The position numbers were made by a program. A stretch of 64,000 bases of DNA from Negaprion brevirostris (taxonomy: Eukaryota), in assembly GCA_030324005.1 (NCBI GenBank), contig JARDVH010000084.1, positions 93,050,417 through 93,114,416 of the forward strand, written 5' to 3'. Positions 30,001 to 60,000 of this stretch are shown piece after piece; within the stretch, counting starts at the first letter, position 1, and each line of letters opens with the position of its first letter.

Positions 30001-33000
30001 AACTAAAGCTATGCCCGTCTTTTTCAACACAAATGGCACGTTGTTAAACAAGACACGCATGCGTTCTTGTCCAAGGTATCAGAAATGATGGCCTGGGAAC
30101 TGATGATAACCAGTGATTATTCAGCCTTGTCATATTCAATAAATAACTTTTCCTGGACAAGGAACTGATGGTAACCAGTAATTATTCAGCCTTGTCATAC
30201 TCAATGCATAGCCTTTCCTGGACAAGGAACTCCTTGTTCCTCAATAGCACCTGATGCTTCCGGGCTAGTTCTCTACTTGCTTCAAAATAGCGAAGAATGA
30301 CAGATTCCAACAAGATCATACCTATTAAAAGCATCAGTAACGTCACTCGAAAGAATGCATATGACTTTAGCTATCCAAAGAGCCTCCAAAAAGCCTACAT
30401 AGGCATGGTGAATCAAATTTTCCGAGCGAGGTCAGTATGTGTATGCTTTTATAAGAGCCGTGAAGGAATTAAGATGTAAAATTGAAGCACACGTTGTAGT
30501 GTACAAACATTTACTGGTAACGACCAACCTCCCTTGCAATAGACAAATAAGCTAAATATACAAGATTTTGAGGCAAAATTTAAGGACAAGAGAAACATGC
30601 AAACAGGAATATGTGTAAAAAATCTGAGACAAAATAAACTGTTCTTGAAAATAAAATGGACAGACAAGCAAACAATTAAATCGACGTAAGTCGGATAAGG
30701 GCGATAACTTCCATTCCCTAACCCTCAGGCCTTAGTGTTGGAAAGAGGAAGCGCTGAGAGATTAAACTGATACATTAAGAAGAGCACGATAATGTTTTGT
30801 TGTTAAACCAGAGAGGCTGTTGTCTTGTTCTTCTTTGTAAGTGTTAATCGTGTAATGGCACATCACTGGTGCCAATTGAAATAACTTGTCAGATGCATGT
30901 GAGCCTTCAAAACATTCCCTTCAATTATAAATGAGTCTCCAATCGTAAGAGTGCTTCTCATACAAGGCCAGAATCCGGAGTGTGAGTAAGTCTGGCAATA
31001 CTCATAACATACACAGATGAGATTGCCTGACTGGGTAGGTAATCATTACCTCAATCATGCAGCTAATACTCCAAGGGACCATACTCATTGTTGTCAGTAC
31101 ACCTACGCTGGTCTAATCTGATTTCGGTTAAGGAAGGCGTCGATGCGAAATTCTTTCTCTTCAAAGTGTTTCAATGGCCACTCGTCACCCATCTGTTTCC
31201 TTCCCCACAACCTGCTGAGCATCAATAACCCTTGTTATTTTAAAGTACAAAATTGCATGGAGATATACAATCGGAATAAAAGTGGCCAATGTCAGAACCT
31301 CTCTACGGTCCAAGTAATTTTGACATGTCTTCGCATCTCCTGCCTCCCCATGAGGGTCATTGCTGCATGTCACGTTCGATCAGCTGTTGGTCAAATGCGA
31401 CCCTATCTTCGCCAAGTGATAGTATGTCAATGTTGATTTACAATTCAGGAGCACTTGTAAAATCAAGGCAAAACAACAAAAAAAAGAAAGTTGCATTTAA
31501 TTTGGCTTACGGGCTCTTTGCAGGTCATCTTTTAGTCTCTTTATATCTGACGGAGGAAACAAGAATTATATCTTCAGTTGCACACGAGTATTTATGTGGC
31601 AAGGTACCTGAGGAAAAGGTATTTGCTGCATCGTCCGAAATAAATAATACAAAAGTTATCATGTTGCATATAACTTACTGCCATACTGTAAATGAAAAAT
31701 AATTGATCAATATATGTCCGACTTTCTTCCAACACATATTATTCGGTCACGAAATATTAGCATTAATATCTATAATTATTAGACTGAATCTGCTCTAAAA
31801 CACTTAAGGCATCAGTAAACGAAATAGCATCATGTAGAATTAAATTGATTTTATAATTCATGAATAACATATTTCAAAATCAGCATGTGAACACTGGCAT
31901 AAGTTGCCAAACCTATCAGATTTCAAAGCAAAATATTACCTTCAGGTCTGATGTCTTTTGTTCAATTGCATCAGTGNNNNNNNNNNNNNNNNNNNNNNNN
32001 NNNNNNNNNNNNNNNNNNNNNNNNNNNNNNNNNNNNNNNNNNNNNTGTTTTATGTAATGTAATGTAGAATGCCCGACGCATCTTTCTTCGATATATTGAC
32101 GTTACTCAGAGCGTTCACATCCATTCCCTGACTTCAATATCAGTCTTGTCCTCCTCCTTAGTAAAGGACTCATTACCAGTCTCACTCACTTTCTGTGGCT
32201 TCCCGCATAAATTCCCTCCGTCATGGATGAGTGGGCCTATTTTTTCTCCTGCTCCTATTGTATACGATACTGCATGATTTTCATCTAATCATATCTCCAC
32301 TTTCCTGTTTTTTCCCCATAGCCCTTTACCCCGCTTTTGATCATATTCCTTTGCTGTATTGTTCATTGAACTGAAACTTTGAGGGATCAATCTCAACAAC
32401 CAAAAATAAAACAGATGTCCAACGAAGTGCGAGTTAAGTAGATTGGCCAATGTAATGTTTCCCCTTCGTGCCCTAAGATGATTATATTGGAGGTATTAGC
32501 GGGTAAAATATGGAGGGATATGGGGGTAGGGCTTGGGTGGAATTGTGGTCGGTGCAGACTCGATGGGCCGAAGACCACATTCTGCACTGTAGCGTTCTAT
32601 GATTCTATGATCCCATCGAAAAGTAACTCGTTTGTTTAGCATATTCTTTCTCTTGCAACTAAATGCTACATAAATGGCTTAATGGAACATATTGCAATAA
32701 AAAACTGGAGGACTCCAATGCGTATTTAAATTTTTTTTTGGCATGATCCACCACATTTGTTTTCATTCTATTTTGGACGTCATCAATACGTTTTTGTTAT
32801 TCCATGAAACCTTCAATACTTTATTTTTTGTCTCCTTCCATTTCCTTTTTGCATCAGCAAAGAAGGAGGATGTACAGCTTGCGATTGCCATAGTGAAATG
32901 CCATGTATTTCTTTTTACACTTGCAAAATTGTGCCATCACATGCAGAAACTTCACAGTAGAAATTCAAAATGGTGTTGCATGGACGCTTGGCGCGAGATT

Positions 33001-57000: not shown

Positions 57001-60000
57001 TGTGACGAGTGAGCCGAGGCCGGAAAGGAAGGAGAGTGCTTGAAAACGATTAAACAGTTCCGGCCTCATCACGAAATACTGCTCATTTTAAAACTCAATG
57101 GTAACTCGTTGTCGCAATTATCTTCTTGCCGCGACTTGCTCACGGCAGCTTCGGATGTGCTTCAGTCGACTTGCAATAAACCAAGAGGGCGGAACGTGCC
57201 TGTTGACGATGGTCGCTATAATTTGTATATTCCCTGCGGATAATGACGGGCTGGGCAATAACATCCGAGATTCANNNNNNNNNNNNNNNNNNNNNNNNNN
57301 NNNNNNNNATAGCTTAGAGAACAGGGTCAGCAGGCATACAAAAAAAAGAACGATGACTGTTATCTATGCTGCTAATTCTGCATGACACTACGTACAAGTG
57401 AAGTAGTCGTCAGATGACAGCGGTATTATTTTTAATAAAGACGGGTGAGCGTCGTTACATCTGTCAATCGGTGCTCCGCTTGATAGGTTGATCGACTTGG
57501 AGACGGGGGGAAGGTGGCGTAGGGATTAATGAGGGCGCGTTTAATCGAAAAGCAGCCTTGTGACAAAATCGTCCTGGCTCTTGGGGCGAAGCTTCAGTGT
57601 CTTCTGGCATGCCACACGCGCACTGCTTCCAAGCAGCAGTCACGTCTGGAGTTCTGCTTGGGGGACGAGTGAGGCCGAGGACGTTCAGACGTGATCGGAG
57701 AGCGCATTAGCTTGGGCCCGATAAGGGGAAAAATGAAAATGAGTCTGACCAGCATCCAGAATGCTGCTTTCGATTCCTCTGGGAAGCTAATCCAGAGGCG
57801 GGCAGAGTTTGCTGAGCAGTCTGAAAGGGATGCGGAGATGTTGTTATCACTGCAATCATTCCAAGTTTCCCACACCAAAGCTGTCTCTAAATCTGCGGGA
57901 GCACCCTGACCAACGTCGCAGTTCACTGAAACGTTTATTTTATGTCTATTTCACAGGACAGCAACGAATGCGCGGCGCAATGTGTTGCATGCACTGAGGA
58001 ATCTTAAAATGGAAATTACATGAATTGCAAGATAAAATCCTTCTAAGTAAAAATCCATCCTCTAACAAAGATACTGAATGTTATAAGAAGAGCTGATATT
58101 CAATTTCCATTCTTTGTCCTTAAGTACCTCTTTCTTTATATTTCAGATCGTCTTCTGTTGTGGTAAAACGAAGAACATTTTAAGGTTTGTGTCATGTGTG
58201 TTTGACAGTAATTAAATAATAATTTGCCCAGTACGTTAGGTGAGCTGAAGCATTCGATGTTTCACTGAAATGGCATTGTTACCTAAAATGATACTAACAG
58301 AAATGCACTGCTTTGCTTGACCTTGTACCGAGACGTAATGAAGTTCATGATCATACATATTTTTCAGTTTGTTGTGGGTAGTTTCTCAGGGTACAATTTC
58401 ATCAAAGTAAACTATCCGCAAAGTTGGTGAGAAAGGGAGTCCATCGATGATAACGTTAGACTCATTCGACAACCACGTCACTTTGTCCTTATATATTTAA
58501 ATTAACCGTCTCGCCACCACAGCTTTTTAAGAGTGTTCGACTAATCACGGTAAAGCAAAATACTGGGGATGTTGAAACCTGAAAGAAAAAACAACTTTAA
58601 TGTTGGAAAATCTGAGAAGCTCAGACAGTATCTGTGGAGAGAACTAAACTTGAGAATCTTCATGACCCTTTGTCAGGGACTGCTTAAGCTGCATTAAAGC
58701 AGCAAATCGGCTTAGGTGGGCCATCAGACTTGATTGATTGCTGCGCAGGTTTGTATTTCAATTCACAGCAGATATGTGTAAACCATATTTTAGGTGGCAT
58801 GGGAATACCACAGATTATTTATTTATTTATCGGTGTCACCAGTAGGCTTACATGACCACTGCAATGATTTTCAGTTACTGTGAAACTTCGGGATTTGGTG
58901 AATAGTGTTTCTTGAAGAATGAGGGATGTTCAACTTTACCAGAAAGTCGGAAAGAAGGAGCAGGAGACAACAAGAAATCAGGTTGGCAGGCAGTAAATAA
59001 ATGAACAGTGATGGTGAAGTTTATGTTTTACACTCACTTGGGCGGTTTTTTTTTTAATCGAGCATCGTGTAATGTTTGCACTGTGTAAATTAATAGCTTG
59101 ACTGGTTAAATTATTTACATAACGACTATCAGTCATTGAACAAAGAAGTATTTGCCAATTAAAAGACTGTTGAAATGATTGGACAACCGACTTGGTGAGA
59201 CCCACTGAACACAGCAACAATCGACAGGTGCATCCTGTACAGAAAATGTTCCCATCGGAATGGATCAGATCGAAATCAAAATTAGGAGATTTTTTTTTTT
59301 ACTGCAATGTATAATGCAGACATCATATGATATTGAGAGTCATCTGTAAACTTCAGTGATGAACAGCCAAATTTCAGTTGCTACATTCTGCTTTCCCCCA
59401 AAGGACGGAAAATGGGGCATCCTGACCAAAAAAAAGCGCATAATTTAGATATTCTCTACAAAAAAGCAGGCACGTGTTCTCAAGCAGAATCACAAAATAA
59501 TAACATAGAACGATCTTCAAAAAATAACTTGTTATGACAGTCGTGGTTCTTTTTATCAAGGTTACCAAGATAAGTTAGGTGATCCCAGTTGACGATCCTC
59601 GTGGATAAATGCAATGGTGCCGTTATTTCGCAAGGTGGGGGTACACTTCAAGTTTACTTCATGTTAACTAGCAACGTTTATATCGTCAATTATACCCGCT
59701 ACGAAACAATGGTGCCTTCGTAGAACATATTGATTTAGATGGGAAAGTAACAAGCTCCAGTTCCGATAAATCTGGGCGCCCAACAACCATACTTTCATAG
59801 CCTGGAAATCATTATGTCCTCCTTATACTGCGTTCATTGTGTGTTATCNNNNNNNNNNNNNNNNNNNNNNNNNNNNNNNNNNCCAATCGTTTTCTCAAAG
59901 ATAAAGCATTATTAAATGCTTCTTGGATGCCCAATTTTCCAACGTCCGCTGAAATCCGTATTTATTTTGCACATGGTTATTTTTCCTTGTGGGTTGTTCT

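What the first reader, a model, noticed from the sequence alone, without database searches (positions are those of the whole stretch)
31330..59180. Coiled-coil elongation by tandem triplication of a whole intron+exon module
Seen: three collinear units whose introns still align, each supplying one 27-nt exon and (where assembled) one 36-nt exon. Downstream modules (6764-25281) show no intron similarity that I could see beyond the splice flanks, so they are older. Exons in the young units keep frame, length and splice sites while neighbouring intron sequence carries many indels. Inference: polarised growth of the array at its 5' end with purifying selection on the microexons; 63 coding nt are added per 7-12 kb duplicated.
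[Added by the scan's program, not by the reader: the finding's places include an assembly gap (unread letters, written N; its length is only estimated) at 31977 to 32045, 36573 to 36582, 39735 to 39834, 43345 to 44015, 46879 to 46978, 50354 to 50363. Whether the letters on both sides are continuous or in frame is not known: test that first.]
Basis: partly seen in the sequence, partly recalled or inferred. Interest (0 to 1): 0.72.

Follow-up and report, generated by a model that had tools for sequence, protein, structure and literature searches.

The report
Twice-duplicated microexon block in coiled-coil gene
A roughly 8-kb piece of a minus-strand gene that carries three tiny in-frame exons was copied in tandem twice, long ago, which is an ordinary way for a repetitive rod-like protein to grow.

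Summary
Window 31361-59135 holds three head-to-tail, collinear copies (U1, U2, U3) of an intron-plus-exon block on the minus strand. They are far above a reversed-sequence control.

The copies are old. U1-U2 are 76% identical; either against U3 is 66-67%, in 5 of 5 blocks. So there were two successive duplications, tree (U3,(U1,U2)). It is not an assembly artefact.

Besides the 27-nt and 36-nt exons, U1 and U3 each carry a 30-nt exon-like element with intact splice sites. A unit would then add 93 nt, or 31 codons, not 63. In U2 only the 27-nt exon is visible; its other two exon positions lie in or beside assembly gaps.

Exon identity is not significantly above intron identity (p 0.15-0.24). 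Selection is supported instead by kept length and splice sites (joint chance about 1e-4). It is also supported by pN below pS and by exon similarity to older modules whose introns no longer align.

Growth polarised toward the 5' end is not shown. The gene is unidentified, and the spliced model was not joined or searched. This is an ordinary kind of event.

The parts
31361..39435 (-). Unit U1, the 3'-most copy in the direction of transcription, 8.07 kb. It holds a 27-nt, a 30-nt and a 36-nt exon. It also carries a LINE reverse-transcriptase fragment at about 34872-36247 that U2 and U3 lack at that position.
   Evidence: Collinear chains to U2 and U3. Pfam RVT_1 matches on ORFs 35133-35471 and 35324-35839.
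39854..46376 (-). Unit U2, the middle copy, visible part only. Only the 27-nt exon is visible. The unit is bounded and interrupted by the gaps at 39735-39834 and 43345-44015.
   Evidence: Chains. The alignment to U3 starts 19 nt from the gap edge.
46607..59135 (-). Unit U3, the 5'-most copy, 12.5 kb. It holds 27-, 30- and 36-nt exons. Its extra length includes an unaligned stretch at 50901-55109 with a LINE fragment at 51104-52227 in the opposite orientation to the one in U1.
58128..58154 (-). 27-nt microexon of U3, phase 1-1.
   Evidence: AG/GT flanks and open frame. Found by a profile built only from the old modules, E 1.1e-6.
56403..56432 (-). 30-nt exon-like element of U3, phase 1-1. It was not in the finding.
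   Evidence: CAG acceptor, GTGAGT donor, no stop codon. E 4e-3 with the profile built from old 36-nt exons.
46765..46800 (-). 36-nt microexon of U3, phase 1-1.
   Evidence: It shares 26 of 36 positions with the U1 copy.
45344..45370 (-). 27-nt microexon of U2, phase 1-1.
   Evidence: E 7.8e-6 with the old-only profile. It shares 23 of 27 positions with U1.
43345..44015 (.). Assembly gap that covers the position homologous to the 30-nt exon in U2.
   Evidence: The flanks map to U3 56181 and 56836. That interval contains the U3 30-nt exon at 56403-56432.
39735..39834 (.). Assembly gap of 100 N at the U1/U2 junction. The 36-nt exon of U2 is either hidden here or was never part of U2.
   Evidence: U2 39854 aligns to U3 48033, which is 1233 nt beyond the U3 36-nt exon. 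The left flank 39436-39734 matches only dispersed repeats.
38389..38415 (-). 27-nt microexon of U1, phase 1-1.
   Evidence: E 4.7e-4 with the old-only profile.
36614..36643 (-). 30-nt exon-like element of U1, phase 1-1. It was not in the finding.
   Evidence: E 1.5e-3 with the old-36 profile. Its 9-nt donor flank is identical to that of old exon 24456-24491.
31511..31546 (-). 36-nt microexon of U1, phase 1-1.
25255..25281 (-). Older module, 27-nt exon.
24456..24491 (-). Older module, 36-nt exon.
17889..17915 (-). Older module, 27-nt exon.
16412..16447 (-). Older module, 36-nt exon.
11088..11114 (-). Older module, 27-nt exon.
10666..10701 (-). Older module, 36-nt exon.
6764..6789 (-). Element like a 27-nt exon but only 26 nt long, one base short of the others. 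It could be a decayed exon, a phase-changing exon, or an assembly slip. No 36-type partner was found downstream.
   Evidence: (E 0.009).

Best explanation
A minus-strand gene runs through the window as an array of symmetrical phase-1 microexons.

OLDER, 3' PART OF THE ARRAY. A 27-nt exon alternates with a 36-nt exon. Together they encode a 21-residue period. Aliphatic residues sit at full-codon positions 1, 4 and 8 of the 36-nt exon, with Ala at position 11. An aliphatic residue sits at position 3 of the 27-nt exon. This is the 3-4 spacing of an alpha-helical coiled coil.

5' PART OF THE ARRAY. An ancestral block of about 8 kb already held a 27-nt exon and, about 1.7 kb downstream, a 36-type exon shortened to 30 nt. 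After a long intron it held a second, more diverged 36-nt exon. This block was duplicated in tandem, and later one of the two copies was duplicated again. That gives U3, U2 and U1.

AFTER THE DUPLICATIONS. Introns accumulated substitutions, indels and separate LINE insertions. The exons kept their length, phase and splice sites.

SHOWN: the three collinear units, their branching order, the exon anatomy, and the retention of exon structure.

INFERRED: that the exons are spliced into one mRNA, that the product is a coiled coil, and that the duplications lengthened it. Each unit would add 31 residues if all three exons are used. That shifts the heptad phase by three residues per unit, which by recall is called a stammer.
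For: - Collinear chains stand far above the control.
- Over 2732 columns shared by all three units, identity is 76.1% (U1-U2), 66.1% (U1-U3) and 66.7% (U2-U3). K2P distances are 0.29, 0.46 and 0.45. The ranking is the same in 5 of 5 blocks.
- All 7 of 7 visible exon copies in the units keep AG and GT, their length, and an open phase-1 frame.
- The fraction of intron windows of equal size with no indel and four identical flanking bases is 0.17, 0.097, 0.093 and 0.080 for four comparisons. Their product is 1.2e-4.
- pN/pS is 0.10/0.52, 0.23/0.45 and 0.15/0.75.
- Forty-column windows over the 27-nt exon rank at the 97.8th to 99.4th percentile in all three pairs.
- Profiles built only from the three old modules recover 3 of 3 young 27-nt exons (E 1e-6 to 5e-4) and 2 of 2 30-nt elements (E 1.5e-3 and 4e-3).
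- Old and young 27-nt exons share 13-20 of 27 positions although their introns do not align.
- Aliphatic residues at positions 1, 4 and 8 in 7 of 7 exons of the 36/30 type. Ala at position 11 in 5 of 5 36-nt exons. Aliphatic at position 3 in 5 of 6 27-nt exons. Lys at position 6 in 6 of 6 27-nt exons.
Against: - Raw exon identity is not significantly higher than that of alignable intron (p 0.15-0.24). Several intron windows are as conserved as the exons. The 36-nt exon window ranks only at the 87.5th percentile.
- No transcript evidence was available.
- Pfam gave no match at a curated cut-off for the 191-aa ORF at 2298-2870 or for 30 further minus-strand ORFs in the flanks. The ESM Atlas gave no match for that ORF.
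- With the 30-nt exon included, the heptad phase is not continuous.
- Two of the three exon positions of U2 are unseen.
- The four comparisons multiplied are not fully independent.
Confidence: 0.72

Rival explanations
1. One reading: each unit contributes only the 27-nt and 36-nt exons (63 nt, three heptads). The 30-nt element would be a dead or unused pseudo-exon.
For: 27+36 keeps the 21-residue period, while 27+30+36 = 31 residues does not (arithmetic). The 30-nt element has lost 6 nt relative to every other exon of its type.
Against: The 30-nt length, the CAG acceptor, the donor with 9 identical flank bases and the open frame are shared by U1 and U3, which are about 34% diverged. In intron windows this joint retention has a frequency of 0.093. 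Its covering window ranks at the 95.9th percentile. It sits where the 36-nt exon sits in old modules, a short intron after the 27-nt exon.
Confidence: 0.25
2. The duplicated exons are alternative (cassette or mutually exclusive) rather than additive. The duplications would then diversify isoforms or stalk length instead of simply lengthening the protein.
For: Every exon is symmetrical in phase 1, so any subset keeps the frame. [quoted passage not shown]
Against: No transcript data. The exons differ in length (27, 30, 36), unlike typical mutually exclusive pairs. No docking or selector sequences were looked for.
Confidence: 0.3
3. The young units are neutral, decaying copies, and their exons are no longer under selection.
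For: Exon identity is statistically indistinguishable from intron identity.
Against: Joint retention of length and splice dinucleotides has a probability of about 1e-4. pN is below pS in all three comparisons. There are no stop codons, and replacements are conservative.
Confidence: 0.08
4. The apparent units are an assembly artefact (uncollapsed haplotypes or a misjoin), or are only dispersed transposon copies.
For: The region has nine N runs. Two of them, 39735-39834 and 54727-54784, could not be tested. Transposon fragments are present.
Against: The units differ by 24-34%, far more than haplotypes would. Six to ten blocks lie in the same order and orientation across about 8 kb. The LINE copies are non-collinear and inverted, so they are not what aligns.
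Confidence: 0.03

Closest known systems
Nebulin triplicate region (NEB TRI: exons 82-89, 90-97, 98-105), and the segmental duplication region reported in titin
   Same: An intragenic block of exons plus introns of about 10 kb, present three times in tandem, inside a long repetitive structural protein gene. For NEB I saw passages of PMC9109913. For titin I saw only the abstract of PMC9142044 in the listing.
   Different: The NEB copies are described as highly similar and copy-number variable. Here the copies are 66-76% identical, which makes them ancient. Here the block holds three microexons of 27-36 nt rather than eight ordinary exons. The protein is unidentified.
Heptad-repeat neck of C-type lectin receptors such as CD23
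   Same: An extended alpha-helical coiled-coil stalk with aliphatic a and d positions (passages of PMC6791321). By recall only, the CD23 stalk is built from 21-residue repeats, each encoded by a 63-nt exon, with the number differing between species. That would match the 21-residue period here.
   Different: No lectin or any other domain exon was found in the window. The period here is split over two exons. Membership is a lead, not a result.
Tandem exon duplication in general, including mutually exclusive duplicated exons
   Same: Homologous neighbouring exons of the same phase produced by tandem duplication (abstract of PMC9741552, seen in the listing).
   Different: Here the introns still align, so the size and order of the events can be read. 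Whether splicing is exclusive or additive is unknown.

Membership tests
Intragenic tandem (segmental) duplication of an exon-intron block | Two or more head-to-tail copies in which the introns as well as the exons are collinear. | tested here: met
   Chains of 6, 10 and 8 blocks. The control against the reversed window gave 1 hit of 46 bits.
Intragenic tandem (segmental) duplication of an exon-intron block | Homologous exons with preserved length and phase in each copy. | tested here: met
   27-nt exon in 3 of 3 units. 30-nt element in 2 of 2 visible positions. 36-nt exon in 2 of 2 visible positions. Two positions in U2 are hidden by gaps.
Intragenic tandem (segmental) duplication of an exon-intron block | Near-identical copies with copy-number variation, the NEB TRI type. 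| tested here: not met
   Identity is 66-76%. Copy-number variation is not testable here.
Alpha-helical coiled coil | Hydrophobic residues at a 3-4 spacing (heptad a and d positions). | tested here: met
   Per-exon residue positions. The spacing is continuous across a 27+36 module by arithmetic. One d position is always Lys.
Alpha-helical coiled coil | Heptad phase unbroken through the duplicated units. | tested here: not met
   27+30+36 gives 31 residues, a shift of three per unit, if all three exons are used.
Alpha-helical coiled coil | Predicted or observed helical oligomer. | not tested
   This would need the joined spliced model, and that step was left out. Single exons of 9-12 codons are below the 20-30 residue minimum of the search and fold tools.
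Collagen-type exons (lengths that are multiples of 9 nt) | Gly-X-Y triplets. | tested here: not met
   No frame of any exon shows Gly at every third residue.
C-type lectin receptor neck (CD23-like) | A C-type lectin domain encoded by the same gene. | tested here: inconclusive
   No lectin match in any of the 40 ORFs scanned. The 31 minus-strand ORFs from the flanks reached no family cut-off at all. The gene clearly extends beyond the window.
Mutually exclusive tandem duplicated exons | Only one of the homologous exons is present in each transcript. | not testable with these tools
   No transcript data.

The most novel reading that the evidence does not exclude
The array is a modular ruler for an extracellular or cytoskeletal stalk. 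Every exon is symmetrical in phase 1, so splicing can include any subset. The 5' units are ancient, selectively maintained 31-residue inserts, and each places a regular three-residue heptad break (a stammer) into the rod. On this reading the duplications did more than lengthen the coiled coil: they created a structurally distinct, periodically overwound segment whose length can be tuned by splicing.
Probability: 0.15. Interest if true: 0.5.

Novelty: new member of a known kind. Interest (0 to 1): 0.3.

Why it matters
It is a clean, readable example of how a repetitive rod protein grows. The introns still align, so the size of the duplicated block (about 8 kb), the order of the two events and the later decay can all be read from one sequence. 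That decay includes indels, independent LINE insertions and a roughly 200-nt loss in U2.

It also carries a caution. For microexons, a contrast of raw divergence between exon and intron has almost no power. Retention of length, phase and splice sites is the informative signal.

The mechanism itself, tandem intragenic duplication of exon blocks, is well known.

Tried and rejected
1. COLLAGEN-LIKE EXONS. Suggested by the 27- and 36-nt lengths being multiples of 9. There is no Gly-X-Y pattern.

2. A RELIC 27-NT EXON AT 39105-39147 (nhmmer E 0.006). The U2 and U3 counterparts do not keep the motif or any splice site. Rejected as chance.

3. FURTHER CONSERVED EXONS. A homologous pair of 36-nt stretches flanked by AG and GT lies at 37889-37924 and 57618-57653. 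Both have stop codons in the phase-1 frame.

4. U2 AS A U1/U3 RECOMBINANT FROM UNEQUAL CROSSING-OVER. U2 is closer to U1 in all 5 blocks.

5. DUPLICATION MEDIATED BY FLANKING REPEATS. An element of about 85 nt recurs near the unit ends: 39273-39364, 46220-46304, 33275-33360, 48657-48741, 7173-7258 and 60311-60386. No copy was found at the outer ends of the array, and the two junction sequences do not match each other. Undecided.

6. GENE IDENTITY. None of these gave an answer:
   - Pfam on the 191-aa ORF at 2298-2870 and on 30 further minus-strand flank ORFs gave nothing at a curated cut-off. There were two sub-threshold hits.
   - ESM Atlas on the 191-aa ORF at 2298-2870 gave no usable hit.
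   - Rfam gave 0 matches and the tRNA scan gave 0.
   - Two literature searches for coiled-coil microexon arrays returned nothing relevant in their listings.

Stop-free ORFs were sent instead.

8. WHAT STAYED UNCHECKED.
The genome collection holds only bacteria and archaea. So no orthologous locus could be fetched.
   - The exons are 9-12 codons each, below the minimum length of every protein tool. An exon-by-exon search was therefore impossible.
   - The joined spliced model was neither built nor searched.

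
Full report
SETTING. The window is 64 kb with 40% G+C and 17 runs of N. Nothing in it looks human. It carries LINE reverse-transcriptase fragments: Pfam RVT_1 matched 3 of 10 ORFs. 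It has no Rfam family and no tRNA.

THE GENE AND ITS EXONS. I listed every stretch of 27 or 36 nt flanked by AG and GT on both strands. A set on the minus strand shares sequence, phase and flanks.
- 27-nt exons: 58128-58154, 45344-45370, 38389-38415, 25255-25281, 17889-17915, 11088-11114.
- 36-nt exons: 46765-46800, 31511-31546, 24456-24491, 16412-16447, 10666-10701.

All of them start with two bases of a split codon and end with one, which is phase 1-1. None has a stop codon in that frame. In the direction of transcription the two types alternate.

A profile search found three more elements.
- Two are 30 nt long, at 36614-36643 and 56403-56432. Each has a CAG acceptor, a GTGAGT donor and the same phase.
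- One, at 6764-6789, resembles the 27-nt exons but is 26 nt long, one base short in the alignment.

THE RESIDUE PATTERN. This is read exon by exon.
- In 7 of 7 exons of the 36/30 type, full-codon positions 1, 4 and 8 are aliphatic.
- Position 11 is Ala in 5 of 5 36-nt exons.
- In the 27-nt exons, position 3 is aliphatic in 5 of 6 and position 6 is Lys in 6 of 6.
- Counting the split codons, a 27+36 module has 21 residues with an unbroken 3-4 spacing. This is the heptad pattern of a coiled coil.
- The pattern is the only evidence for the fold.
- The joined spliced model was not built, searched or folded. Single exons of 9-12 codons are too short for any protein tool.

THE THREE UNITS. A self-comparison gave 63 hits, against 1 hit (46 bits) for the reversed window. 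The best collinear chains define these units:
- U1: 31361-39435.
- U2: 39854-46376.
- U3: 46607-59135.

The aligned parts are 77.8% identical for U1-U2 (3323 pairs), 69.2% for U1-U3 (4081 pairs) and 69.0% for U2-U3 (5078 pairs). They carry 1.8-2.5 gap openings per 100 aligned bases.

On the 2732 columns shared by all three units, identity is 76.1%, 66.1% and 66.7%. K2P distances are 0.29, 0.46 and 0.45. The ranking is the same in 5 of 5 blocks.
- The history is therefore two tandem duplications, with U3 splitting first and U1/U2 later.
- U2 is not a U1/U3 recombinant.
- Copies this diverged cannot be uncollapsed haplotypes.
- If substitution rates are as slow as recalled for cartilaginous fishes, both events would be very old. 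This is inference.

Differences in unit length come partly from separate LINE insertions. One is at 34872-36247 in U1. An inverted one is at 51104-52227 in U3. They also come from losses, for example about 200 nt absent from U2 between 44596 and 44602.

WHAT A UNIT CONTAINS. In the direction of transcription, a unit holds:
1. about 1 kb of lead sequence;
2. the 27-nt exon;
3. a 1.7-kb intron;
4. the 30-nt element;
5. a long intron, 5.1 kb in U1 and 9.6 kb in U3;
6. the 36-nt exon;
7. about 150 nt of tail.

The 30-nt element stands where the 36-nt exon stands in old modules, a short intron after the 27-nt exon.
- A profile built only from the three old 36-nt exons with 12-nt flanks finds both 30-nt elements (E 1.5e-3 and 4e-3).
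- The same profile finds one young 36-nt exon only weakly (E 0.12) and does not find the other.
- Nine bases of the donor flank of the 30-nt elements are identical to those of exon 24456-24491.

I read the 30-nt element as a 36-type exon that lost 6 nt before the first unit duplication. I read the young 36-nt exon as a second, more diverged exon of that type.
- If all three are spliced in, a unit adds 93 nt, or 31 residues, not 63 nt.
- Thirty-one residues moves the heptad phase by three. By recall, such a break is called a stammer.

GAPS. No gap touches a visible exon.
- Four short gaps (36573, 50354, 55877, 57275) are bridged by a single alignment to a paralogous unit, and their flanks map to adjacent positions.
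- 31977-32045 has collinear flanks.
- 43345-44015 has collinear flanks, and its counterpart in U3 holds the 30-nt exon. The U2 copy of that exon cannot be seen.
- The alignment of U2 to U3 begins 19 nt from the edge of gap 39735-39834, at a point 1233 nt beyond the U3 36-nt exon. The sequence left of the gap matches only dispersed repeats. Either the gap hides more than 1 kb of U2 including that exon, or the second duplication never included it.
- 46879-46978 sits in 275 nt that correspond to 16 nt in U1.
- 54727-54784 lies in U3-specific sequence.
- No gap was filled or looked up.

SELECTION.
- U1-U2: exon 23/27, intron 77.5%, p 0.24.
- U1-U3: exon 69/93, intron 68.7%, p 0.15.
- U2-U3: exon 21/27, intron 68.8%, p 0.22.

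The intron figures come from the alignable part only, which biases the test against finding a difference. Other measures do show constraint.
- Forty-column windows over the 27-nt exon and its splice sites rank at the 97.8th to 99.4th percentile in all three pairs. The 30-nt element ranks at the 95.9th and the 36-nt exon at the 87.5th. Several intron windows score as high.
- Intron windows of equal size that show no indel and four identical flanking bases have frequencies of 0.17, 0.097, 0.093 and 0.080. The product is 1.2e-4. These comparisons are not fully independent.
- pN is below pS in each comparison: 0.10/0.52, 0.23/0.45 and 0.15/0.75, on very few sites.
- Most telling, old and young 27-nt exons still share 13-20 of 27 positions. 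An old-only profile finds all three young 27-nt exons (E 1e-6 to 5e-4). Yet no intron similarity between old and young modules survives beyond 33 nt of flank.

POLARITY. The alignable units do lie 5' of the modules whose introns no longer align. However, the most recent event is internal, and the 5'-most unit is the outgroup. The relative ages of the old modules cannot be read. The 4.8 kb upstream of U3 holds no recognisable exon before the window ends. Growth toward the 5' end is possible but not shown.

GENE IDENTITY. Unknown.
- The 191-aa ORF at 2298-2870 and 30 further minus-strand ORFs from 1-6922 and 58981-63169 gave no Pfam family at a curated cut-off.
- That ORF also gave nothing in the ESM Atlas.
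- The 21-residue coiled-coil period recalls the neck of CD23-type lectin receptors. Passages of PMC6791321 describe a heptad-repeat neck. That each CD23 repeat is one 63-nt exon is recalled, not seen.

COMPARISON WITH KNOWN CASES. The event is of the same kind as the nebulin triplicate region. There, eight exons in a 10-kb block are repeated three times (passages of PMC9109913). The titin segmental duplication is similar (abstract of PMC9142044, in the listing). Here the copies are much older and the exons much smaller. Tandem exon duplication in general is well documented (abstract of PMC9741552, in the listing). I rate this a new member of a known kind, of modest interest.

Noticed in passing
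window 63245-63279 and 63380-63414: The 35 bases on either side of the 100-N gap at 63280-63379 are 97% identical to each other. This looks like an unmerged overlap of two contig ends rather than missing sequence.
   Followed up: no
window 6800-7084 and 7087-7379: A local direct duplication with an offset of about 290 nt lies just upstream of the 26-nt element. One part is 37 nt at 94.6% identity and another is 121 nt at 77%. It straddles the gap at 7131-7163.
   Followed up: no
window 881-1288 (+): A 136-aa open frame gives weak, sub-threshold Pfam matches to AID/APOBEC-type deaminases: APOBEC3 at 18.6 bits and SNAD4 at 17.3 bits, against cut-offs of 27. It is on the strand opposite to the microexon gene.
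   Followed up: no
window 2298-2870 (-): A 191-aa stop-free frame on the gene's strand is unusually long for 40% G+C. It has no Pfam family and no usable Atlas hit. It could be a large exon, a transposon remnant or chance.
   Followed up: partly
window 21474-21986 (-), 35133-35839 (+), 51104-52227, 12505-12800, 28250-28546: Fragments of one LINE family, with Pfam RVT_1 matches up to E 4e-18. They lie in both orientations and are 61-77% identical to each other. They are inserted independently in U1 and U3.
   Followed up: partly
window 7173-7258, 33275-33360, 39273-39364, 46220-46304, 48657-48741, 60311-60386: A dispersed element of about 85 nt is present in six copies, 70-77% identical, in both orientations. 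Two copies lie near unit junctions. No role in the duplications could be shown.
   Followed up: partly
window 30096-30231: A tandem repeat with a 65-nt period, 2.1 copies and 90% matches. It lies in the intron between U1 and the first old module.
   Followed up: no
upstream flanks of the 27-nt exons, e.g. 58155-58168, 45371-45384, 38416-38429, 25282-25295, 6790-6803: The last 14 or so intron bases before the 27-nt exons are conserved even between modules whose introns otherwise do not align. The pattern is a T run followed by CACAACAG or a near variant. This may be a shared branch-site or splicing-control motif.
   Followed up: no
whole window: The CpG observed/expected ratio is about 0.7. By recall this is higher than is typical of heavily methylated vertebrate genomes. 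The origin of the window was not determined.
   Followed up: no
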